A DNA stretch of 64,000 nucleotides from positions 434,001-498,000 of the forward strand of contig CT868052.1 in assembly GCA_000165425.1 (NCBI GenBank), in the 5' to 3' direction. This document shows, in pieces, positions 6,363-20,437 of the stretch. The DNA is from Paramecium tetraurelia (Eukaryota). Each line of letters begins with the position of its first letter. Position 1 is the stretch's first letter. The notes beneath the pieces are model-generated. The model worked only from the letters and a program-made list of their open reading frames with translations, was not told the DNA's origin and made no database searches. The position numbers and the translations under genes are program-made.

Positions 6363-9300
6363 ATGAGGCGTGTAGCTAGAATTGCTTAATCTATGATGAA
6401 AAATAGAATGCTATAATCTCTCCAATAGAAGGTTGTTTATCATTTTGATGATAATTACAATAAGTTTTATAAGGAGAAGAATGAGAATTTGGTATTTTTT
6501 TAAGTTGAAATTCAGATCCATCCTACTTACACATCTAAACATTTTAAAGTGTCATCAAGTTCAATCGTTCAATACTTGGAAGAAAAGAAGATGGAACACA
6601 AGATCTAGGGAAAGTATGTACAATTAAGATATTGTCCATTCTGTCCGAAACATAATATAGAGAATCCATCAAACTAGTTTGTTATGGGAATTAATTTGGA
6701 GAAGTAAATTTGATAACAATCATTCTAGTGGGTCTTATAATTGTTTTAGAGCAACTTGTTAAGCAAGAGGATCTTGGTTTGATTTTAAGAACTTTATGAA
6801 TGGGAATCTAAATAGTTCACAACAATAGAATTAATAGAGTGTATAGCAGCCAACTTAGAAGTTGAATATATTTGAATATCACTAATATTATGAGAGATTA
6901 AAGTTGTAAGAACCAAAAATAGTCTATGACTATTTGATAGGGGATGATTGGGAAAATGTAAAATATGCCTATTATTCACTAGTCAGAATTAAAGAGGAAT
7001 TAAGGATGATGTGTTAAAATTGTATCTGATTGGTATTGATATAACTGAAATCTACGATCCATAGTAGGGCAGTTACGTTTAGGCTCCCCTTATATACTTT
7101 CCTATGTTTCGATATAGAAATTAACATGAGAGGAATAAATTGATGCAGAAAGCTTTGAAGTAGAAAAAGGATGAAGTGTTGGCTGAATAGGTGATGAGTG
7201 AAGAAACCAAATAGAATATTAAATCACAATTAGATAACTAATTTGACAATTTATAGTATGAATTGGTGAGTTGTAAGATCAGAGCAGCCGGAAAGGATTT
7301 GAAGCATATTCAAAAGATCGAACCTATGAATGCAGCTAAAGGAATATTTGGAATGCATTTACTAAAATAAGATTCTACTCAGGTGATTTTAACAGAAGGA
7401 GAATTTGATGCTATGGCTGCTTATTAAATGACAAATATTCCTGCTATATCATTACCATATGGTATCAATCATATTCCAGCCTATCTTATTGAATGGTATG
7501 CTATGATGATTATATAATAAGGTTGGATTAATTTGAGAAATTGAATGATATTATAATATGGGTAGATGATGATAATCCTGGAAGAATCAATTCATAGAAG
7601 ATTGCTCGTAAACTTGGTAATGCGAGAACAAGAGTGGTCTAACCATCTTTACTTGATCCTCATGACTATCCAAAAGATGCAAATGATTGCTTAAGATTCT
7701 ATCCAGATAAAGTCATGACTTACATTGATCAATCAAAATGTCTATTAAAGAAGAATATCACTTAGTTTACTGATTTTAAATAATTGACCAAAAATAGAAT
7801 CTTAAACTTTGAATTGTCTAAAGGAACTCAATCTTAAACTTTTACAACCTATAATAATACAACTAAAGGATTGAGAACTGGAGGTATGTGTGTGATTTAA
7901 CATTAAATTAGAATTCACTATTTTGACTGGACCTACTGGTAGTGGTAAAACAACCTTTTTGAGTCAGCTATCTTTAGATTTCTGTAAAGAAGGCATAACA
8001 ACACTTTGGGGTAGTTTTGAAATTAAGACTGACAGATTGGCCGAACATTAATTATTGCAAGCTTATAAGACAGATTTAATTAAACAAAAGGATTTGATTG
8101 ATGTAGCAGTTCAAAAATTTGAAAATGAAATGCCAATTGTAACAGATTCTATTTATAAATATAGTATTACATGAATTTTTATGGGTCAACAGATCTAGAT
8201 CAAATTATTGATACAATTGAATATGCAATATACGAATATAATGTAACTCATGTTTGTTTGGATAATTTGTAATTTATGATGGGAACTTAAGTCGGAGGAA
8301 ATAGGAAATTTGATTTTCAGGATGAAATAATAGAAAAATTCAGAAGATTGACTAGTAATAATGATATCCATTTAACTTTGGTCATTCATCCAAGGAAAGT
8401 TGATGAAAATGAGGATTTAACTATTGCATCTATTTTTGGTTCAGCTAAAGCCACTCAAGAAGCTGACAACGTTTTTATTATCTAAAACAGACCTAGATAT
8501 AGAGTGTTCGAAATTAAGAAAAATCGATATGATGGAGAAGTAGGTAGAGTTGGATTAGGTTTTGATTCTAATGTGAAGTCATTCTTTGAACTTACATCTG
8601 CAGAAGTCAAAGAATTAAATGAAGAAAAGACTACTATATTAGATATTATTAATAAAAGGAAACAAGAGGGCAGACATTTTAAATAAGAGATCACTATTAA
8701 TGATAAAAACCCTAATAATGATGGTGGAAATAATGAAGGGGGATCTCCAAATAAAGGAGGAAATCATAATAATAATCCAATCAATCCTAAAATATCTAAA
8801 AAAGATAATTTGAATGCTCAAAAAATAAGATTAGAAAATATTGAAATTCCAGATCCAAATATTTTCAAAGATCTCAATGATGATGAAGAGGATCAAATGG
8901 CTTAATTAGATAAAATGACTTTACAATACGCAAATCAAGAAATATCAGAAATTATCCTAAATGAAAAACCAGTGAAATAGGCTTTGGATGAAATTGAAGA
9001 TACTGAAAAAATTGCTAAGGTGGAAAGTTTAATTGATAATTCATTTGTAGAAATTAATGAAAAAAAGCAAGTCCATCAGGATAGTACTCCAGATGCTTAG
9101 TTAAACTAAGGTAAAATGATTAGGGAATGTTAAAAATGCATTGACCCTTCTAATGACTATCTTGAAATATGGAAGTTTGACCAAGATAGTGATTATGGAT
9201 TACAACCAAAAATTGGATAATATGAACCAAAACAGGAATAATAGGCTTAGCCAGATAATAATTAAACTCAATCTAATTATAATGAATTTGCATTATTCAA

Positions 9301-9499
9301 TTCTGATCCATTGAATAAGTTTGCTGCTCAAAAAATTAATAAAGAACTAGATTAAATTTCATAGAGAGATGAATTCTAGCCTGTTGATGACCAAATAGAA
9401 CTCTCTAACTAATATACAAATTCAAAGAGCAAATCTAAAAGGGCTTCTTTTATTCACGTTGGATCAAAGAAGCCTTCTAAATAATAATTAGATTTATGA
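6363..9499 (+). CDS. TWNK: Mitochondrial Twinkle-type primase-helicase (T7 gp4/DnaB-like SF4)
   Basis: Arg-rich N-terminus [19 protein letters not shown]...NCFRATC Zn motif; [16 protein letters not shown] and [13 protein letters not shown]; helicase [50 protein letters not shown]; acidic C-terminal extension. Confidence 0.93.
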
Positions 9500-9559
9500 A
9501 GATTATTTAATAGTATATAAATAATTAATCTTTTATATATTAAATAAATATTAAATTTA

Positions 9560-10017
9560 ATGTCAAAGAAAACTTTTAAGAAATCTGAGGGTACATCGCT
9601 TGTATCTATCATTGGTGATGAAGTACTCAAATATTATTAACATTTAAGGATACTGTTACAGGATTTCTATTAACTGGTATTGGAGAGAAAAATATCAAAG
9701 GAGAAACAAACTTTTTGGTTGTAGATTCAAGTATGTATGATCATTATTTCTCGAAACCGATCCTAAATTGATTGAAAATACTTTTCAGAATTTCTTGAAG
9801 CATCCAAATATAGCAGTCATCCTTGTTACTTAATTCGTTGCTGAAAATTATCTTAGACATATTATTAATTAATATGATGCCATATTGCCTACAATTCTTG
9901 AAATTCCAAGCAAAGAATATCCATATGAAGCAAAGAAAGTATTAAATCTGATTATAATATCAGGATACAATTATTCAAAGAGCTCATAGATTATTGTATG
10001 GTACAGATATTTAGTGA
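9560..10017 (+). CDS. VMA7: V-type H+-ATPase subunit F
   Basis: IIGDE|DTVTGFLLTGIG...IAVILVTQ...PTILEIPSKEYPYEAKKDTII; three tiny introns, the second apparently GT..CG. Confidence 0.93.
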
Positions 10018-10311
10018 TATATATTGAATAATAAAATATGCATTATCAATTGATATTTTATTAAATTATCAATAATAATAATTAATCAATTCTTTATATT
10101 TAATGATCTTGTTAGTTAACAATTCTGTTTAAGTGGTGGTGCATTATTGAAAAAAATTAAATTAAAGAATCAAAAAATGAATATAGTCTTTTTCTATATT
10201 CTTCAATAATAAAACTATCTTCATTCAAAATAATATTAATTTTAATTTTATTATTCTTATTATTGAATTTTGATACTGATTTTCATATTTATCATAGTGA
10301 TTAATTACCAA

Positions 10312-12296
10312 ATGAAATTTCTTGAATTCTTCTTCTTTAATTTAATTGATATCATAATTTAAGTTAATCTGTATTCAGAATTTATCTTGTAATAAAAATA
10401 ATTTTTAAGAAATTCTTCTTTTGATGAATAATATATGTATTACTTAAGTTAAAACCAGTCTTGGGGATACTGGGAATTTTAATTCAACAGAAAGAAATGA
10501 GAAACACAGATAGGCGTATTCAAGAGTTCTCTAGTTAAAGAAGTTGAATTTGATTCAATCTGAAACAAGAATAGAAACTCCAGATAAAGATATAGACGAA
10601 GCTGAACTTCCATTAAGAGAACATTATTATCGAGATACTATTAAGCGTTCGGCGACGATCTTTAAAGTGGCCTAAGAAGAGATGGGTAGATACTAAACAG
10701 AATGGCATTGGAAGTTTTTCTTTGAATTCCTATTTTATCATATTGTAATCTCTTATATCTATTGTCTAGATGTTTTATAATCTTTTTGGGCCCTTTATGG
10801 TTATATTTTTTTGGAAATGGCCTGGTATGCCATTGATGATAAATATGAGATTTTTAAAGCATCATCCTCAGTTTTATTTCTAATTGCTCTTATGGATGGG
10901 TTCATTGGCAGGTGGTTACTGGTATGTATTTGATAATAGAAATATTATAACTTTTACTGAAATACTGTTTACTTAATTTGCCCTCTTAATAAGGGCAGTT
11001 GTAATTGCTGCTAAATATGCTACATTAAGTAAAGAAAGAATCAAATTATACAAATCATAAGTCTTAAGTGAAGAAGTATTTACCTTTGATCTAATGATGT
11101 GGGATTGGAGGCTTCAAACTCCTAAAGTATTATTTCTAGAACAATTGAGATTTTTGAAAAGGAGAGAATTGGATCCGGATTTTTACAAAATTGACTTCTT
11201 ATGCTAACCACATATAAAGACATTAAGGTAAGTGATATAGGTGGAAGTAGGATTTTATTCAGAATGGTTAGAATAGTAGGAGGAATCATAAGTCGCACCG
11301 ATTATAGACAACACGTTCAACTGCTTTTTTATATTTGGATATTTGGTCAATTCATATCAAAAAATTCACACTCCTGGAGGATTTTCTAAATATGTAGTTC
11401 TATAATCTTTAATTTTATCCTTAACGCCATGTTTATTAAGATTATAATACTTTTGTGAAATAGAAGTTGGGGCTGTTGATATTATAAGGATAATTGTAAA
11501 TGTCTTGACTACTTTTCAAGGATTCTTTGGCTCTTTTGTATTTCTCTAAATTGGGCTATATGATTTATAAAGAAAGTTTTATATTTTAGATTAATGTTGT
11601 TATATGTTGAATATTAAAGAATAAAAATATTCATCAGGCAAAAAACTATTACCAACAATCAACTTTAATAATCCAATCACCTTGTAGGCGTGGTCAATGC
11701 TGAGGGGAATGGCCTTTGATTATGGAAGAACATATGATTTCAGAATTCAAGGGTTTTATTCATTGATTTTTATAGGTTGGATATTTTTATTTTTGTTTGG
11801 TATAGGGGTATTATTGGATTTTATACAAATAGATTACTTTTAAATTACTTTACTATCAGAAATGCTAGTGATTCTAACTGGTTTTATTGGATATTATTTA
11901 TGGCATGGAGCTAAATTAAATGAATATTATGAAACGTTCGATATTTTACTTGAAGACGTTAGGAATATGTATGTGGATATGCTTAGAAAGAAAGAATAAT
12001 ATTTTATATTAAACTTGGATGTGACTAATGCGATCCACAAAAAGTTTGTATTTTTGTTGAAGAGTTAAGCTAGATCTGTTGAAACCATTACTTAATATAT
12101 TAATGTGATAATAGAAGAAATAGATGATGCAATTAGATAATTGAATTATGATGAAAGGCATACCCCATTTAAAATCTATGGTATTCGAATAACTTTAAAC
12201 TTCTTGTAAAGTTTAGTGGTTGCTGTATGTACATTAGTTGGGTATGCTGTATAACAAAGGATGTAAAATGTAGATGTTGCTTGCCTTAAAAATTGA
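10312..12296 (+). CDS. Multi-pass membrane protein, PHTF-like / 7TM ion-channel (insect GR/OR) superfamily candidate
   Basis: About 7-8 hydrophobic segments; motifs LILSLTPCLLRL, LPTINFNNPITLQAWSMLRG, YYLWHGAKLNEYY and terminal PFKIYGIRITLNFLQSLVVAV resemble PHTF. Start codon approximate. Confidence 0.6.
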
Positions 12297-12725
12297 CATT
12301 TTAATTTACTCCACAATTTTAATAAATTTTTGGTTATTTATATCAAATAAGTAATTAACAATTTAAAATCAATATGGAAATATTACAGCTTTTAAGAGCT
12401 TGAGTCCTAATTCTCTGGTTTAGCCTATAATTTGGGCCATATTATGGATTGGGAATGTTATTTTGATTATCCTATTTGAGAGTCTTTGAATTAAGGATTC
12501 TTCTTACAAATAATTTATTTTTAATTTAATAAAAATTCTGAGTTGAACTTTAAACTTTACTATGATATTTTGATAGAATCTTTGAATAGATAAAAGTTTA
12601 TTGTTATTAATTATATTTTAAATATGATTATTAATATCAAAATTTCTATTGATAGCATAGAATGGTAATATAAGTAACAAATTTTAAAAGTGAATTATCT
12701 TAAGAATAAATAATAAATAAAAAAT

Positions 12726-13268
12726 TCAACCTATATAATCATCTCTTTCATTGTTGTATTGTTATATTGTTTATTTGATTTTTGATGTATCAGACCAAGT
12801 GATATGATCTTCTTAGGATCTACTCACTAAAGTAGCAGGATCAGTGATTATTTTAGTTCCAATTCTAATATGTCCTTATTCAATATAAGTGCAAGCTTCT
12901 TTGGGTGTTTAGGCAAATTTAAGCTTGCATAACACAATAGGGAGTCTTCTTCTGCAAAATGCTGATACTGCTAATTTCTCACAATTTAATATGTTATCCT
13001 TTGTTGTAATAATTCCCATGTTGTACAATCTCTCCAACAATTATTCAGTTAGCTTTACTCTAAATGGATCTTAAGATGACAATAATTTTATTTTAGAAAT
13101 CATCGATGTAATATGACCGCACATCCTGTTATATTTATCATAATCTTCTCTATTAGATAAATTGTATCTTTTGATTATTTCAGCTTCTCTATGATCCTTT
13201 TCTTTCTTCCAATTATACAAATCAACCCTTTTTAATAGCTTTTTCTCATGAAATTTTAGCTTTCTCAT
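12726..13268 (-). CDS. IMP3: U3 snoRNP protein Imp3 (S4 RNA-binding domain)
   Basis: MRKLKFHEKKLLKRVDLYNW...VSAFCRRRLP...YIEQGHIRIG...DPATLVSRSQEDHITW...ERDDY; intronless under code 6. Confidence 0.96.
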
Positions 13269-13288
13269 AAATTAAATTTTTAATATTT

Positions 13289-14571
13289 ATGAAGAAAATA
13301 TTACATTTTTTTGAGGAAGTTGAAACTACAGATAGTAGAAAATCATTTGAAGCTTTTACTAGATGTAAAGGCAACATCATATTCGGTGCAAAAGTTTAAT
13401 TATATATAAATTATGTTAGAATGACTTGCCTAATATTATTGGGACTTTTTTTTTAATAGTAGCTATTATAATGTTGTACTTAATTTTTATATTTCCTGCA
13501 GCACTAGATTATTAATATAATGCTTTAGCAATTATAATTGCAATATGCTGTATACTTCCAATCACAACGCTTTTGAATGTTACAATGACAGGTTGAATTT
13601 CTATATATATTTTAATAGAACCTGGAGTGTTGTTAAAAGGAGACTTGCCTGATCCAAAATAATAATAATAATAATAGACAGTAGAAGAACTTGAATCAAC
13701 TACCTAATCAAATAAAAATTTTGCAGAAGTAGAGTCAATTAGGAATGGATCAAATCACATTTTATTAGTGGAAGGATCATAAAATTAAATTGAATTGAAT
13801 CTTGAAGTACCCAGCATTTATAAGGTCAGATATTGTTCAACTTGCAAAATTATGAGACCCTCTAAGGCTTCCCATTGTAAGCTCTAAAAGCTAACTAGGC
13901 AAATTCTGCAACCATTGTGTTGAAGGCTTTGATCATCATTGTTTTTGGGTTGGTACATGTATAGGAATAAGAAATTAAAGAGCATTTTTAATATTTTTAC
14001 AATCTTCCTTGATTGTAGCTATTCTTACCTTTTGCTAATGCTCATTAAATTGTAACGATTTTATATTAAATATAAGTGTATCACTAATACTTAGATATAT
14101 ACAATCTTTGGATATTAATGTTTAAAGAGGCTAGTATTCCTATTATAGTTATTTATGGAATATATTTTTGTTGTGGTTGTTGGACTCAATAAAGCTATTT
14201 GAATGTCATAATTATAATGATTATGTTCATTCTTCCAATAATTTACTCTGCTGTTCTCATTAACATTGAAGATGCATACAAAGATTACAGATATTATGAT
14301 AATCCTTTTTTAACATTTTTGGTTACAATCATTCTACTAGTCTGCTGTTGCTTCCTTCTTCCGTTTAATAGTATCAATTGCTATTATATATCATTAGTAA
14401 AATAATGTGAAAATATTATTTTAGGGTAAAACTGCAAAATAGTAGAAATCAGAAGATTAGTTTTATATAAAAAAATAATCCCTTCTGAAAACAAAACATA
14501 GTTCTTCAGAAGTATTTCAAAATTTAGTGAAATTTTATACATCTCCAATACCAATTAGTCGTAATTAATGA
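13289..14571 (+). CDS. DHHC palmitoyl acyltransferase (Erf2/ZDHHC9-like)
   Basis: [41 protein letters not shown]; flanking TM helices; several tiny introns. Confidence 0.93.
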
Positions 14572-14716
14572 TGATTTATTAATATTAAAAATTCTTATTA
14601 AAATATTTAAAATACAAATAGTAATCTAATTAATTTGAAAGTATTATTTTCAAAACCATTTGATGAAACAAATTATCTGAAATAAGTTGAAAATTACTAT
14701 AAATTATATTTCAAAA

Positions 14717-17700
14717 TCATTAAATTCTGCCTATGTAATCATCTAAGCTTATGAATTCAGCTTCGATAATTTCCTCCAGGGATTATGGACTGACTTCCAC
14801 TCTTTATTGATTTATATCAATTAAATGTTAGCATAAATACAATGCTTGTTATCTTAATTTAGATTCAAACTCCTATAATAATATAAAACATTTATTACTT
14901 GTACTTCTTAGACATCTTTAATCTTTACTAAACGCTTTTTCTTTAATAAGTTCTGTTGATATTAATCTGGATATAATGTATTTTCATAATCAACATTGTA
15001 ATTGGCTGTGATTGGAAATTGATAAGCCATGTAAGGTATAAATTTATATGGAGTTGTAATTTTTACTTTTTATTATTATTATTACTATTCCACTTACTAA
15101 AAGTTGATTGTTATACCGAAATCTAATGTTATTATAAAATATTACAATCAAATACAAATATCCATTCATAAAAATAGAATTCTTCAAGTTGAAACAATGA
15201 GAAAAGTTCAATAAGCTTTAAACCTGAGATCAACAAATATGGATTAGCTTACTTTCCCTTTCTATCAAAAATTTAGATTAACATACTAATTAAATAAGGC
15301 CATATTTTGCGAAAGACTTAAGTTAATGAAGATTAACTTAATCTTAAAACTAAGATTCTAATGCAAAAAATAATTAATATTGTTATTGCTTCATGCTGTT
15401 GATTAATATCCTTAATAACTGTTAAAATTGCATCTAACAAACTAGACAATTTGGATTAGTATTTATCTACACCTCCTGAATAGATTATAAAGCAAACTCT
15501 TTCGAATCCTTTTGTTTTCTTTAGTATCTCTGCTGATTTGCTCTAAAACAACCCAGTAAATCCTTAAAGGATCTTTGAATTATTTCCTAATTGATCTGTT
15601 AACAAATCTGTTTTGTCTGATATTATGTCAATGATTTCAGTCCAGAATTTTAGGCATCTTCCTGTGCACTTGAAAAACTCTTATTTATTGAAAATATTTA
15701 AAATATCATTTAAGAATATTTAGGATAGTTAGTCTTTTGAAAGTTTGAGTATAGAATGCAGTAATTCTGAGGCTGATTCCACTATAATCTAATTTTCTCT
15801 ATCTTCAAATAACGGGAATATTAATGCCATAAATTCTTTAGTATTTTCAACTATTCTTTCACCTCTTGATACTTCATAAGTGTTTATTAAAGTCACCTAT
15901 GATAATCTTTTTAATGTTTTTAAGGCAATAATTGAACATTTTTTAGAGAAATCTTGTTGTTCTAATTTCAAACCTTTCTATTGATATGGATCAAATAAAT
16001 TTCTTTATATAAAACATTCATTCCACCCTTCCTCTGTTTTCTCAACATCTTTTTATCTTAATTGATAATACTCAGTATAGAGTTCAAATATAGTCGGAGT
16101 GAAAGGAACAATAAGTTATAAGTTTTGATCAAATTAAGATTAACTAAAGTTCTCAAGGGAAGAAGATGTAAATGTCACATATTGATATTGCATAGAGGCT
16201 ATTTCAGCCAAAATTACCAAAATCTATCTTAATTGTGTATGCAACTCCTTTCTGAATTCTTCCAAGACATCTTTTGGAGAGAATTTCCATGACATTAGAT
16301 GAATGATCTCCAATAAAAAACATATTGTATTAATGTGTCTAGATTATAAGAGGGATTTTGAAAATTATAGAAAACCATTCCACAATCTAATCAATTCTCT
16401 GTTTTTGAGATTTTAAAATAAAACTGATGAAAAATAAGTATATAAAAAGAATAAAATTCCATTCTCAAAAGTTGCTTGATCATAATTGAATTGATATGGT
16501 CCCTTTTTATATTTATTTTTTTAGTAATACTAAATTATTCCCTGAACCTATTGTGTATTAATGAAAGCAGCAATAAAATCATCTGGGGATATTTGTAGAG
16601 TTATTGCGATTTCAATTAGCTTACACATATTTAAATTAATCTTAGGATCAGCATAGAAATTGACTGAGTATTCATTTTACCAAATTAATAAAAAGGATTA
16701 AATTAATGTAGTCGTAAAATGAGTGGAACAAGGTTTCAATAATTATAAAATTGATTACTAAATTTAGTCTTCGTCTGAATAATCTTCTTCTTGCTTAAAT
16801 AGTTAATCTTTGAGTTATTTATTAAATTAATCGAATTTATCATATTCATAAATGAAACAACCTTTGGTAAAAAGATGATCCCATTTTAATGAGCATCTCC
16901 AACATTCCAAATAGGATTATATAATTTATGGAAAATATTTCAAGAGCATCTAGCAAGTATCAGGGAAGTTTTCAAATTATAATTACTCTTGTTATTTTTT
17001 TAATTTTAATGTTTTATCAGCTTTTTTGAAAAAAAGATTTAGTGTAAATAAATCTACTAAAACACCTGCTGCATTTGGTCTCTAATCAATTTCTTTAGAA
17101 TCATATTTGAATTAGAAAAAATAACAAATTATTGCTCTTATAGAATTAGATAATGACATTACTTCTTCAAAATCATCTCCGGACAATGTAGTTTTGATTG
17201 AAGGTTGCTCATTATTTAATTATTATATATTAACTTATTAGAAATTATTATTATATTATTCTTATTTCTGATTCTTTAATATCTTCACATTTGAAACACG
17301 TCTAAATGATTTGACTATTTGGCTATTATTATATTCGCATAATTTTAGTAATGCTAACAAAGATGTAAGTATCAATATAATTTTTTCATTTATTATCTTC
17401 GGAGGCAATAAATAACTGATAGAATAAATACCAACAACAATAGTATTTAAATATCTTTATTTGAGATAGTAAACTTTAGCTAATTTTAATCCATTTACCA
17501 GATTATCAAAAAAGAGTTGTTAATCATAGATATCAATCAGTTTTACTTTATTTTCAGATGACAAATCTTTTTATAACTCATATGTATGGAGCAAGAAAAC
17601 TTTAACCAGATTTAACAGTTGTAATTGTAATACTTGATCTTTACTTTTTATAACTTAATCAAACTTGTTTAAGATGGTATTGAAATATTAGATCAAAATT

Positions 17701-20437
17701 TAGGTCTTACTCTTTTCATTTATTGTATTATTAATAACAATTTCTAAAAGCTCTGCACTTATTGCATTGATTTTTGTATATTCATTATTTTAAAAATCAG
17801 CCACTATAAATTGAATTAGAGTCAAACATATTAATTTGTAGTACGTATTGATATTTTCATCTTCATAAAATGTTGGTCTAGTTTTTTCAATATATGGTTA
17901 AAACCATTCTTTCGACGAATATAAGGATTGTAATTTCTTGATTGAATCAACTGCTAAATCAAGAGAAAATTCATTCTTTTTTTCAATATCTTTTTAAAAA
18001 TTGATTAATCTTAACATAATAGGATCCAATATTCTAAAAAAGAAAGGAGCCGATTCAGATAACCATGTTTTTGTATTATATCTAATCAAAGGATTTTCAT
18101 GTTCCAAAAAGTTTAACATTTGAATGATTCCAACTCCAGTATTTTTATTTGGATGTCTTTTGTAATAAGTATTTGTTATTCTGCAATATATCTAAAATCT
18201 CCTTTAATCCCCTTATTTTAAAGATGATTCTATCACATAAACAAAAACATGTTGAAAATTTTCAGTTATATACAGAAGAAATTCGACAATCATTTAATCA
18301 TGATAATTTTAATCTAAAAGTATCCACAATTTTTCAAAGATTTACTTTATATAATTATGTTAATTATTATTATTCTAATGATGATTCTATGTTTAATCCA
18401 TACATAGGGATAAAATATTTGGAAACGGTTCTAAATCTTAATAGCTGTGTTTAGTTATCATATCAGTTAGTGATTGTATATTTTAATGAAGTGAAGCTGA
18501 CTTAAGTAGTTCTATTAAAATTTAAATGGAATATAAATTTATTTTATTTGTTCCTTAATCCAAAGATTTAAAGAGTTATTTAATCCAACTAGGTATTTCT
18601 TAGTATTAATAATTTCCTTGTTTCATTAAATATAATTATGATCTCAATAAAATTAGGGATAAAATTGGAAATAATGTTTCTTATTCATTGTTAATTGAGT
18701 ATTCATTAATTTAAATGTAATAATTGCAATACTAAGAGATGATATCAATGTCAATTTGATTTAATTGCACTAATATTGAATTTTTGGATGGTTCTACCTA
18801 TTTATTGTAATTGCTTCCCAAAACTGCCTATAACTCTTTATCATTTTCTAAAATTTCTAATCTCTTTCTTATTTTATTAATGCAATCCACGGTTTATTCC
18901 AATAACAATTAGGATATTGAAGTTTCAAACACTTATTCACAAGTCAAATTCATCAACTCTTTTATTATTATAATAATAAATTCTTGTAAACATTCAGTTC
19001 TTTATTAAAACAATTATAGATCTTCAATTTTTGATAAATCTGAAAATTATTATATCATTAAATTATTAAGACAAAAGTCAAAAATTAGAATACATTCCTT
19101 AATCTAATCTTGCTTTTAATCTTTCATATGTTTATTTAATTGTTCAAATAGGGATTTTATGATTAATTCACTATGACTGGATATGCTCTCAATAAGTCTC
19201 TCCCCTCCTTTCAATAACTCTACAAGTTTTTCATTTTAATTCCCATTTTTGTATTGGACAGTCTTATGATAAATGTATTTAGCTAGAGAATATCCAATTT
19301 AAAATAGAGTTAATTGAACAGTTTCTGGATGTTGCATATACCAATTTTATAGCACTTTCAGGGGATCCCCTTATTCTTCAATTAATATTCTTTTTAATCC
19401 TTCCTAGATATAAAGGATATTGGGATTGTTTTCAGAGAGCTCTTCTTCTCCAATTAACCAATTGTTTATTCTTCTTATGACTGCATGATCTTATTTTTAA
19501 AATAAAAGCAAGGCTTATTCAATCAGTATTAATTGTTCTTGTTATGAAAAGACTTTATCTTAAATTTTGCAATGCAAAGTCATAAAATCTAAGGCTGCCC
19601 TTTTTACTAGTGAAGATTCATCATCCAAAGATGCCAAAAGAGCATTAATAACCAAAGCACTTTTATTTGGCATCTTATCGTCTTCTTTTAATTCATTTTC
19701 ATTTAATTCAATTTATTATTATCTTGTCCATCTCTTCATTAGATATTTATATGCTCCTAACCTACTTCTAACTGATCTAATTATTGTTATCCAAAGTAAT
19801 CCAAAAAATTGTTTTACTCCTACGCTTTCACATGCTTAATCAAGAGAAGACATTACCTAGTGTCTATATAGAAATTACCTTTTTCATCATCTCCTCGTTT
19901 GTATCCTCCATACCAACAATTATGGAATTTATCAAGCCTCCCATACATGGTAATAATTCTCTCTTTAAGGGATAGTAATATTTTTCAAGAATGCTTAAAA
20001 ACATAGGCTTACATTAAATGGATGCAAACCCAAAGAATGGAAATAGACCAAGGGAAAATAATGGCAAATCTTATATTAGATCATACTCTGAATCTGAACA
20101 TAGTATTTGCAATATCAAATCATAAAGAGTAAGTGCATTTTCATGAATAGCTTTATTCCAAATAGGACTTAAACATTGTGCTAACCTTTTGCATAATAAT
20201 TTTTTCTTTGGGATATAGGTGCCTTAATATGATTTAAAAATTGCTTGTAACTTAAGTAACCACTAAAAATAAATTGTGATGAACTACCTATCCTAAATCT
20301 GACCATTCTTTTAGAGATTCATAGCTTTTTAATATCGCAACGATCTTGGATTTTTACTTCGTTTGATCTTCAGTCTTCACCTTTATAACAGCTTAACTTT
20401 CTGAGTTTCTGTTTTGATGTTTTTGATCATTAAACAT
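14717..20437 (-). CDS. DOP1: Dopey/DOP1 family large trafficking scaffold
   Basis: N-terminal YESLKEWSDL...IPKKKLLCKRLAQCLSP...IHENALTLYDLI and later VRSRLGAYKYL and LDDESSLVKRAALDF match the Dopey N-terminal domain; ~5.7 kb gene. Confidence 0.85.

What the first reader, a model, noticed from the sequence alone, without database searches (positions are those of the whole stretch)
10312..12296. PHTF-like protein: candidate member of the insect GR/OR 7TM ion-channel superfamily in a ciliate
Seen: a multi-TM protein with the ordered motifs LILSLTPCLLRL, FFGSFVFLQIGLYDLQRK, LPTINFNNPITLQAWSMLRG, YYLWHGAKLNEYY, a long helical loop, then PFKIYGIRIT plus a final TM helix. Recalled: animal PHTF has the same order (LTPF.FRL; FFF...AERTYKQR; PHFRL....NIK.WLSLRS; PF.I.G before the last helix), and PHTF is a structural relative of insect gustatory/odorant receptor channels. 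Inference: this could be a ligand-gated tetrameric channel, attractive in an excitable, chemotactic cell whose chemoreceptors are poorly known.
Basis: partly seen in the sequence, partly recalled or inferred. Interest (0 to 1): 0.7.

Follow-up and report, generated by a model that had tools for sequence, protein, structure and literature searches.

The report
Paramecium insect-chemoreceptor-fold membrane protein
This Paramecium gene encodes a membrane protein predicted to fold like insect smell and taste receptor channels and carrying sequence marks of the PHTF branch of that superfamily, but its function in ciliates is untested and a public database already labels it a gustatory receptor.

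Summary
A + strand gene (ATG 10424, 25-nt intron 10745-10769, TGA 12294-12296, ciliate code) encodes 615 aa carrying all five quoted motifs in order. The product is identical to Paramecium tetraurelia GSPATT00006833001 (A0C9Q9), which UniRef already names 'Gustatory receptor'.

The family has 656 profile hits; every member that carries an organism name is from Paramecium or Tetrahymena. It has a folded IL1 of about 100 aa and an IL2-TM5 motif with the same spacing as in animal PHTFs. It also keeps 2-3 of 4 positions of the GR TM7 motif. It lacks the Pfam PHTF N-terminal domain.

So the fold and the PHTF-like reading are supported. Tetramer, channel activity, ligand and location are untested. 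It is a new member of a known kind, of moderate interest.

The parts
10424..10744 (+). Exon 1 (aa 1-107). The N-terminal region is of low confidence (pLDDT under 50 for aa 1-49). The first half of hydrophobic helix TM0 starts at aa 96 (nt 10709).
   Evidence: ORF and splice model. The translation equals P0183 residues 1-107. pLDDT and helices from the model of orthologue P0002.
10745..10769 (+). 25-nt intron, GTAAT...CTAG, which shifts the frame by +1.
   Evidence: Its removal gives the annotated 615-aa protein exactly. The junction is kept in homologues. No RNA read spans it.
10770..12296 (+). Exon 2 (aa 108-615) plus the TGA stop at 12294-12296. It holds the whole 7TM core.
   Evidence: Model of this product alone: pLDDT 94.8, pTM 0.92.
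10866..11021 (+). TM1 (aa 140-161), a 7-aa outer loop, and TM2 (aa 169-191). TM2 ends in the conserved R182, K189 and Y190.
   Evidence: Helices. Conservation in 129 family members. The alignment to OR/GR chains starts near aa 125.
11022..11321 (+). IL1 (aa 192-291). A folded insert of about 100 aa between TM2 and TM3, with short helices and a small sheet. Conserved residues: W220, E231, R238, F250.
   Evidence: mean pLDDT per 10-residue block mostly above 90, two blocks near 85. Length at least 90 aa in 127 of 129 members. Conservation.
11322..11609 (+). TM3 (aa 292-330, kinked at 306-310), an 11-aa outer loop, and the long TM4 (aa 342-387). The cytoplasmic end of TM4 carries D372, R375 and Q382.
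11652..11726 (+). PHTF-like motif at the IL2/TM5 start (aa 402-426): P, 12 residues, W, 2 residues, LR, 6 residues, G. P402, W415 and G426 are each kept in 98-99% of the family; R419 in 88%.
   Evidence: Strict form in 67 of 129 members and relaxed form in 103 of 129. It occurs in 2 of 25,800 shuffles and once in the six-frame translation of the window. Conservation. The same spacing is seen in the animal PHTF sequences shown.
11673..11987 (+). Long TM5 (aa 409-455), a 7-aa outer loop, and long TM6 (aa 463-513) with N491 kept in 98% of members. Their cytoplasmic extensions would form the anchor domain.
   Evidence: Helix lengths of 47 and 51 residues. Conservation. Loop lengths.
12078..12194 (+). 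TM7a (aa 544-571, cytoplasmic helix) and the TM7a-TM7b linker (aa 572-582, PFKIYGIRIT, two short strands). G578 is kept in 93% of members.
12195..12293 (+). TM7b (aa 583-615), the presumed pore helix. It ends with T595...Q602, which meets 2 of the 4 positions of the GR TM7 motif (T/S)Yhhhhh(Q/K/E)(F/L/M).
   Evidence: The motif text comes from PMC7746228 (passages).

Best explanation
The gene encodes a member of the 7TM ion-channel (7TMIC) superfamily, which includes insect odorant and gustatory receptors. It belongs to a family seen so far only in ciliates and sits closest to the PHTF-like (Class-B) branch.

Shown here: the gene model, its transcription, the family, the confident fold and its exclusive match to OR/GR/Orco structures, the PHTF-like insert and motif, and a partial GR TM7 motif.

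Inferred by analogy with solved insect channels:
- Four subunits (alike, or mixed with paralogues) would be held together by a cytoplasmic anchor domain, made of the extended TM4-TM6 and TM7a.
- TM7b would line a central cation pore.
- The strongly conserved cytoplasmic face (end of TM2, the IL1 domain, the IL2-TM5 motif, N491) would serve assembly or regulation from inside the cell.

Ligand, gating and membrane location are unknown. The family is small, its outer loops are short and variable, and rat PHTF1 is reported in the endoplasmic reticulum. I therefore favour an internal or housekeeping channel over a diversified surface chemoreceptor.

My odds: 7TMIC fold and homology 0.9; PHTF-like branch 0.65; ion channel 0.5; surface chemoreceptor 0.12.
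For: Gene: the spliced product equals P0183, P. tetraurelia GSPATT00006833001.

RNA: 46 reads from two oligo-dT runs lie on the gene, all in one orientation.

Family: 656 profile hits at E<=1e-3. The hits that carry an organism name are from Paramecium or Tetrahymena.

Fold:
- The model of orthologue P0002 has pLDDT 88.4 and pTM 0.87. The model of the window's own exon-2 product has pLDDT 94.8 and pTM 0.92.
- Foldseek's best rows are AaegOR10 and BmGr9 at probability 1.00.

Architecture: TM4, TM5 and TM6 helices are 46, 47 and 51 residues long. TM7 is split into 544-571 and 583-614. Outer loops have medians of 7, 12 and 7 aa. The three outer loops hold 2 K+R in total, against 3, 13, 4 and 6 in the inner loops.

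PHTF-like features: IL1 is at least 90 aa in 127 of 129 members. The P-12-W-2-LR-6-G motif is in 67 of 129 members against 2 of 25,800 shuffles, with the spacing seen in animal PHTFs.

GR TM7 motif: position 1 is met in 106 of 129 members, position 8 in 96 and position 9 in 44.

Independent lead: the language-model neighbours among named clusters include 7 DUF3537 'Gustatory receptor' clusters at 0.90 and 7tm_7 clusters at 0.86.

Database name: UniRef calls this protein 'Gustatory receptor'.
Against: - No sequence-level link was found. There are 0 Pfam families at E<=10 for the window's two ORFs. None of the 9 paralogues or of 60 distant relatives hit a PHTF, 7tm_6, 7tm_7 or DUF3537 model. PDB sequence profiles gave only noise.
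- Foldseek E-values stay above 0.001 (0.029 and 0.0088).
- The PHTF link rests on motifs compared by eye, partly chosen after seeing both families. No PHTF cluster appeared among the 30 nearest named clusters.
- IL1 is about 100 aa and folded. In animal PHTF it is over 300 aa and largely unstructured (PMC9998090, section 6, read).
- Position 2 (Y) of the TM7 motif is met in only 7 of 129 members. The window protein meets 2 of 4 positions.
- TM7b is among the least conserved helices.
- Nothing here shows oligomers, ion flux, a ligand or a location.
- As far as I know, channel activity has been shown only for insect ORs and GRs and a few relatives, not for any PHTF.
Confidence: 0.72

Rival explanations
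1. It is a 7TMIC, but of the Class-A kind (GRL/DUF3537-like, the branch that holds insect GRs and ORs), not a PHTF relative. The PHTF-like motif would then be superfamily-wide or convergent.
For: - The nearest named language-model clusters are DUF3537 'Gustatory receptor' (7 clusters, 0.90) and 7tm_7 (0.86). None is PHTF.
- UniRef's name is 'Gustatory receptor'.
- The GR TM7 motif is partly kept: 91 of 129 members meet at least 2 positions and 40 meet at least 3.
- The Pfam PHTF N-terminal domain is absent.
- The TM7a-TM7b linker pattern (hydrophobic, aromatic, G, hydrophobic) is also seen in the DUF3537 and OR sequences read.
Against: - IL1 of at least 90 aa between TM2 and TM3 is present in 127 of 129 members. 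The Himmel, Moi and Benton preprint gives this as the mark of PHTF-like Class-B proteins (sections read).
- The P-12-W-2-LR-6-G motif has the PHTF spacing. I did not see it in the DUF3537 and Drosophila OR sequences.
- DUF3537 and 7tm_7 Pfam models do not hit either.
Confidence: 0.22
2. It has the 7TMIC fold but is not a channel. It would act as a membrane scaffold or adaptor of an internal membrane, as proposed for mouse PHTF1, whose N-terminal region binds the FEM1B ubiquitin ligase at the endoplasmic reticulum.
For: - Conservation is concentrated on cytoplasmic parts: the IL1 domain, IL2, the end of TM2 and N491. TM7b scores low.
- Outer loops are only 7-12 aa.
- The paralogue number is small.
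- The endoplasmic reticulum location and FEM1B binding of PHTF1 are cited in PMC9998090, section 6 (read). [quoted passage not shown]
Against: - In insect ORs too, the anchor domain is the best conserved part (preprint passage). Cytoplasmic conservation therefore does not argue against a channel.
- The split TM7 and a polar Q/E near the outer end of TM7b are kept: position 602 is Q, K or E in 96 of 129 members.
- The N-terminal region that binds FEM1B in PHTF1 has no counterpart here.
Confidence: 0.3
3. One reading: a surface or ciliary ligand-gated cation channel that serves as a chemoreceptor of the swimming cell.
For: - The fold is that of ligand-gated chemoreceptor channels.
- The gene is transcribed in vegetative-type oligo-dT libraries.
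- Several paralogues could form mixed channels, as OR and Orco do.
- The membrane-embedded parts TM1, TM3 and TM4 score lower than TM0, TM2, IL2 and TM5. In ORs the ligand pocket lies in such parts.
Against: - Only 5 paralogues of P. tetraurelia were seen, partly copies from whole-genome duplication. Orthologues in other aurelia species are 87-98% identical. That is not the pattern of a fast-evolving receptor repertoire.
- There is no evidence on location.
- No paper found links these proteins to chemoresponse.
- PHTF-type relatives are reported on internal membranes.
Confidence: 0.12
4. The likeness to OR/GR channels is convergence of a long-helix membrane bundle, and the family is unrelated to 7TMICs.
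For: - No sequence search links them.
- Sequence identity in the structural alignments is 7-12%.
- The authors of PMC9998090 themselves warn of possible convergence (passage).
Against: - Order, topology, the split TM7, the short outer loops and the partial TM7 motif at the equivalent place all agree.
- Sequence-only language-model features point to the same superfamily.
Confidence: 0.06

Closest known systems
PHTF proteins (PHTF1/PHTF2, fly Phtf; 'Class-B, PHTF-like' eukaryotic 7TMICs of Benton & Himmel 2023, PMC9998090, and Himmel, Moi & Benton 2023, bioRxiv 10.1101/2023.08.30.555482)
   Same: - The 7TMIC core has an added long loop between TM2 and TM3.
- An N-terminal region of about 100 aa precedes the core.
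- Motifs are collinear around the end of TM4, IL2 and the start of TM5. P-12-W-2-LR-6-G has the same spacing, and there are also an HKK triplet and P-x-K/R-I/L-x-G before the last helix.
- The gene number per genome is small.
   Different: - There is no match to the Pfam PHTF N-terminal domain.
- IL1 is about 100 aa and confidently folded, not over 300 aa and mostly unstructured.
- Part of the GR TM7 motif is kept here. I did not recognise it in the PHTF sequences I read.
- No ciliate sequence is in the PHTF data sets of the 2023 eLife paper (files 9-11 and 13) or in its superfamily network file (file 49, as held).
Insect gustatory and odorant receptors and Orco (solved tetrameric ligand-gated cation channels, e.g. 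6C70, 7LIC, 8VC1, 8JM9)
   Same: - The predicted fold is the same over about 300-330 residues.
- TM4-TM6 are long, TM7 is split and outer loops are short.
- The motif positions T/S and Q/K/E near the C-terminal end of TM7b are kept.
   Different: - Sequence identity is 7-12%, with no Pfam 7tm_6, 7tm_7 or Trehalose_recp hit.
- There is a 100-aa IL1 domain.
- The family is small and conserved rather than a large, fast-evolving repertoire.
- Channel function and a ligand are not shown.
Plant DUF3537 proteins and protist GRLs (Class-A 7TMICs; Benton et al. 2020, PMC7746228)
   Same: - They are non-animal members of the superfamily with small gene families.
- They are the nearest named language-model clusters.
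- They carry the same automatic name, 'Gustatory receptor'.
   Different: - Pfam DUF3537 does not hit.
- DUF3537 proteins have long IL3, not IL1 (PMC7746228 passage).
- The IL2-TM5 motif was not seen in the DUF3537 sequences read.
- The main text of Benton 2020 lists no ciliate.

Membership tests
7TMIC superfamily (insect OR/GR fold) | Seven TM helices with the characteristic packing | tested here: met
7TMIC superfamily (insect OR/GR fold) | Long TM4, TM5 and TM6 reaching into the cytoplasm (anchor domain) | tested here: met
   Model helices 342-387, 409-455 and 463-513 are 46, 47 and 51 residues long. The same is seen in the window's own product.
7TMIC superfamily (insect OR/GR fold) | Split TM7 (cytoplasmic TM7a plus membrane TM7b) | tested here: met
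   Helices 544-571 and 583-614 are separated by an 11-residue linker with two short strands.
7TMIC superfamily (insect OR/GR fold) | N-terminus inside, C-terminus outside; outer loops shorter than inner loops | tested here: met
   Outer loops have medians of 7, 12 and 7 aa, against IL1 103 and IL2 21; the IL3-plus-TM7a stretch (514-582) has a median of 83 aa. The three outer loops hold 2 K+R in total, against 3, 13, 4 and 6 in the inner loops. This is a prediction only; no topology experiment was done.
7TMIC superfamily (insect OR/GR fold) | N-terminal re-entrant loop TM0 | tested here: inconclusive
   A hydrophobic helix at 96-120 lies before TM1. H106 is kept in 92% of members, G114 in 100% and P115 in 91%. 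Some GR alignments start at residue 82. No coordinates were available to check whether it re-enters the membrane.
7TMIC superfamily (insect OR/GR fold) | TM7 motif (T/S)Yhhhhh(Q/K/E)(F/L/M); diagnostic but not definitive (PMC7746228) | tested here: inconclusive
   The window protein meets 2 of 4 positions (T595, Q602). In the family, position 1 is met in 106 of 129 members, position 2 in 7, position 8 in 96 and position 9 in 44. At least 3 positions are met in 40 of 129.
7TMIC superfamily (insect OR/GR fold) | Tetramer with a central pore; cation conductance | not testable with these tools
   One complex job was run and returned no verdict. Conductance needs electrophysiology.
PHTF / Class-B PHTF-like 7TMIC | [quoted passage not shown] | tested here: met
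   IL1 is 100 aa in this protein and at least 90 aa in 127 of 129 members, up to 376 aa. It is shorter than the more than 300 aa of animal PHTF.
PHTF / Class-B PHTF-like 7TMIC | PHTF N-terminal domain (Pfam; the accession PF12129 is recalled, not from a call) | tested here: not met
   No PHTF family was listed for the window's ORFs at E<=10, for the 9 Paramecium paralogues at E<=10, or for 60 distant relatives at E<=0.01.
PHTF / Class-B PHTF-like 7TMIC | Conserved PHTF motifs around the end of TM4, IL2 and TM5, and before TM7b | tested here: met
   P-12-W-2-LR-6-G is in 67 of 129 members (relaxed form 103 of 129), against 2 of 25,800 shuffles. The same spacing is seen in the animal PHTF sequences shown. 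The comparison with PHTF was by eye, not by an alignment program.
PHTF / Class-B PHTF-like 7TMIC | Significant profile or tree link to bona fide PHTFs | not tested
   No PHTF sequence could be brought into the tools: none was among the 150 listed hits or later searches. The weaker 506 of the 656 hits were not listed.
Pfam 7tm_6 / 7tm_7 / Trehalose_recp / DUF3537 | Match to the family's profile above its cut-off | tested here: not met
   No such family appeared.

The most novel reading that the evidence does not exclude
The ciliate family would be a working set of ligand-gated cation channels on the cell or ciliary membrane: the long-sought chemoreceptors that couple attractants and repellents directly to membrane potential in Paramecium and Tetrahymena. 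It carries both a PHTF-type IL2-TM5 motif and part of the GR TM7 motif. It would then also be a sequence bridge tying the two eukaryotic 7TMIC classes to one ancestor.
Probability: 0.1. Interest if true: 0.85.

Novelty: new member of a known kind. Interest (0 to 1): 0.42.

Why it matters
The 7TMIC superfamily is known from insect smell and taste receptors. Its PHTF branch, present in humans, has no known function.

Ciliates offer large, excitable, genetically tractable single cells with classic electrophysiology and behaviour assays. A small, conserved ciliate family of this fold could therefore be a practical system to find out what PHTF-like proteins do.

If the proteins sat on the surface, they would also be candidates for ciliate chemoreceptors, which remain poorly defined at the molecular level as far as I know.

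The value is tempered. This exact protein already carries the automatic name 'Gustatory receptor'. Published screens report thousands of 7TMICs in unicellular eukaryotes, and I could not see their lists (bioRxiv supplements are closed). Nothing here bears on function.

Tried and rejected
It opens a different frame, and the annotated protein starts at 10424.
- Alternative splice (GTG...TAG, 10912-10939): it keeps the frame, but homologues follow the 10745-10769 model.
- Pfam on the window ORFs, paralogues and relatives: nothing meaningful. The 7 sub-threshold rows are scattered, unrelated families.
- PDB sequence profiles: only noise, such as gp41, a GPCR fusion and SdhC.
- Word-index protein searches with the deep alignment and with a distant long-IL1 member found only Paramecium proteins or the query itself. 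The reach of the family beyond ciliates stays open. Of 20 distant hits looked up, 6 carried an organism name, all Tetrahymena or Paramecium.
- TMEM39 (Tmp39) was the top named language-model cluster at 0.93. I rejected it as a lead.
Two copies of residues 122-615 of the orthologue then gave 'no answer', score 0.00. This is no evidence either way.
- Own genome search for paralogues: no genome is held. tblastn finds only this one copy in the window.
- RNA holders: no listed holder is on record as RNA. The laid raw reads did not span the intron.
- Earlier findings of this scan: nothing found by sequence or by words.
- Literature: '7TMIC' together with 'ciliate' gives 6 papers, and none of the 3 listed is on this topic. 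The protein accessions for Paramecium and Tetrahymena are in no full text. The preprint and the two eLife papers do not mention ciliates, Paramecium or Tetrahymena in their main texts.
Full report
**Gene and observation.** Read with the ciliate code, the + strand between 10424 and 12296 holds one gene. Exon 1 is 10424-10744, a 25-nt GTA...TAG intron is 10745-10769, and exon 2 is 10770-12293, followed by TGA. The two exon translations joined give, letter for letter, the stored protein P0183. P0183 is Paramecium tetraurelia GSPATT00006833001, also CAK67526.1 and A0C9Q9_PARTE.

Two oligo-dT RNA-seq runs of the same species label gave 17 and 29 reads on the gene. All had the first mate on the - strand. 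There were none in 10200-10351. The gene is therefore transcribed, at low depth in the share of the runs that was read. No read crossed the intron, which rests on the annotated protein and on the conserved junction in homologues.

**Family.** A word-index search found 9 proteins, all from Paramecium species, at 42-89% identity. A profile of these, run against 1.84 billion representatives, found 656 proteins at E<=1e-3, 335 at E<=1e-10 and 98 at E<=1e-30. Only the best 150 were listed.

Of 20 distant hits looked up, 6 carried an organism name, all Tetrahymena or Paramecium. The other 14 come from unnamed assemblies. Whether the family reaches beyond ciliates is open.

Five P. tetraurelia paralogues appeared in the clusters I read: A0C9Q9, A0DGS1, A0DGS2, A0EG15 and A0E7I9. 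Orthologues and duplicates in the aurelia species are 87-98% identical over exon 2. The window holds one copy only.

**No sequence-level family.** Pfam gave nothing for the window's ORFs at E<=10. It gave only scattered weak rows for the 9 paralogues. For 60 distant relatives it gave nothing above a curated cut-off: 53 had no row and 7 had one unrelated sub-threshold row each. No PHTF, 7tm_6, 7tm_7, Trehalose_recp or DUF3537 model appeared. Profiles against PDB sequences gave noise only.

**Fold.** With a 129-sequence alignment, AlphaFold2 modelled the full-length orthologue P0002 (89% identical) at pLDDT 88.4 and pTM 0.87. With 130 sequences, it modelled the window's own exon-2 product at pLDDT 94.8 and pTM 0.92.

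Foldseek against the PDB gave no row at E<=0.001. Its best rows were insect receptors: BmGr9 at E 0.029 and AaegOR10 at E 0.0088, both at probability 1.00.

- 297-332 residues aligned out of 319-407.

The tool warns that helical models can reach such Z by chance. Three things argue for a real shared fold here: the hits come from one family only, they cover TM1 to TM7b, and a clear gap separates them from the rest.

**Anatomy** (numbering of the 615-aa protein):
- Residues 1-49 are of low confidence.
- A hydrophobic helix at 96-120 keeps H106 in 92% of members, G114 in 100% and P115 in 91%. It is a candidate for the re-entrant TM0 of the superfamily.
- TM1 is 140-161 and TM2 is 169-191.
- A folded insert spans 192-291 (IL1).
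- TM3 is 292-330, TM4 is 342-387, TM5 is 409-455 and TM6 is 463-513.
- A cytoplasmic helix, TM7a, is 544-571. An 11-residue linker with two short strands follows. TM7b is 583-614.

The outer loops have medians of 7, 12 and 7 aa across 129 members. Together they hold 2 K+R in this protein, against 3, 13, 4 and 6 in the inner loops. This fits N-terminus inside and C-terminus outside.

The features listed for the superfamily in the Himmel, Moi and Benton preprint (passage) are thus met in the model. The exception is the re-entrant nature of TM0, which I could not check without coordinates.

**Conservation.** The best conserved positions lie in TM0 and on the cytoplasmic side:
- R182, K189 and Y190 at the end of TM2;
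- W220, E231, R238 and F250 in IL1;
- D372 and R375 at the end of TM4;
- P402, W415, R419, G426 and R432 at IL2 and the start of TM5;
- N491 in the extension of TM6;
- G578 in the TM7a-TM7b linker.

TM7b and the outer loops vary more. The preprint reports the anchor domain as a conservation peak of 7TMICs in general.

**PHTF-like or GR-like?** The preprint separates a PHTF-like Class-B from Class-A by a long loop between TM2 and TM3. Here that loop is at least 90 aa in 127 of 129 members, with a median of 103 and a maximum of 376. It is shorter than in animals and confidently folded.

I read PHTF sequences in the supplement of PMC9998090 (file 10). Line breaks hide some occurrences.

The ciliate family has, at the same place (IL2 to the start of TM5), the pattern P, 12 residues, W, 2 residues, LR, 6 residues, G. 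The animal PHTFs shown have the same spacing.
- The strict pattern is in 67 of 129 members and a relaxed form in 103 of 129.
- It occurs in 2 of 25,800 shuffled sequences.
- It occurs once in the six-frame translation of the window, at this gene.

Further collinear likenesses are an L-x-S-H-hydrophobic-x-S-x-x-K stretch after TM4 in several members, an HKK triplet, and P-x-K/R-I/L-x-G before the last helix. I did not see the IL2-TM5 pattern in the DUF3537 and Drosophila OR sequences that I read.

This comparison was by eye and partly after the fact. No PHTF sequence could be brought into the alignment tools, so a formal score is missing.

Two results speak against a plain PHTF label. The Pfam PHTF N-terminal domain is absent. 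The nearest named language-model clusters are DUF3537 'Gustatory receptor' (7 clusters, 0.90) and 7tm_7 (0.86), not PHTF.

**TM7 motif.** The only primary-sequence mark of animal GRLs is (T/S)Yhhhhh(Q/K/E)(F/L/M) in the C-terminal half of TM7 (PMC7746228, passage). At the aligned place near the end of TM7b, the family meets position 1 in 106 of 129 members, position 2 in 7, position 8 in 96 and position 9 in 44. At least two positions are met in 91 members and at least three in 40. The window protein meets two, T595 and Q602.

The motif carries little information. Its place, a median of 5 residues before the C-terminus, is the right one.

**Function.** Nothing here tests function. By analogy with solved insect channels, four subunits would join through the anchor domain and TM7b would line a cation pore.

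Three things make me favour an internal or housekeeping channel over a diversified surface chemoreceptor: the small, conserved gene family; the minimal outer loops; and the reported endoplasmic reticulum location of rat PHTF1 (cited in PMC9998090, section 6). This is inference. The paper itself says the function of any PHTF is unclear.

**What is known already.** UniRef names this exact protein and its duplicate A0DGS1 'Gustatory receptor', while NCBI calls them unnamed or uncharacterized. I could not see the basis of that automatic name.

Benton et al. 2020 list no ciliate in the main text. The 2023 eLife paper has no ciliate in its PHTF files (9-11 and 13) or in the held text of its superfamily network file (49). 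The other supplementary files of that paper, 40 of 53 in all, were not searched.

The 2023 preprint reports thousands of new 7TMICs in unicellular eukaryotes and a Class-B of 'broad but sparse' taxonomic range. These proteins may well be in its lists.

No full text holds the accessions of the Paramecium or Tetrahymena proteins. Of the 6 papers holding both '7TMIC' and 'ciliate', none of the 3 listed is about this.

**Verdict.** It is untested for channel and chemoreceptor function. The gene is a new member of a known kind, with a database label that anticipates the idea, and is of moderate interest as a possible model for PHTF-like proteins.

Noticed in passing
RNA-seq depth is zero in 10200-10351.
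   Followed up: yes
window 11639: One contig of run X3 (depth 15) has an extra A behind 11639, in a run of six A. This would shift the reading frame just before the IL2 motif. The other runs do not show it. It may be an assembly error, a strain difference or slippage.
   Followed up: no
window 9874-10051: The N-terminus of a longer (808-aa) P. octaurelia gene model in the same protein cluster (P0188) matches this upstream stretch at 73-76% identity. Either a small upstream gene lies here, or that model fuses two genes.
   Followed up: no
window 7493-9499 (+), 12726-13346 (-), 14865-19853 (-): The neighbours look unrelated to the finding. Upstream is an ORF with an AAA_25 helicase-type domain. 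Downstream is a protein with ribosomal S4 N-terminal and S4 domains (U3 snoRNP IMP3-like by my recall). Beyond it is a 1662-aa Dopey-family protein.
   Followed up: partly
related records, not in the window: In P. tetraurelia the duplicate of this gene (GSPATT00002367001) and a 608-aa paralogue (GSPATT00002368001) have consecutive locus numbers. The same pairing, with accessions one or two apart, appears in four other aurelia species. The window's copy has no such neighbour within 64 kb, so one of the duplicated loci seems to have lost the tandem paralogue.
   Followed up: partly
whole window: The window holds 28 N. G+C is about 18-32% in 8000-15000, as expected for Paramecium.
   Followed up: no
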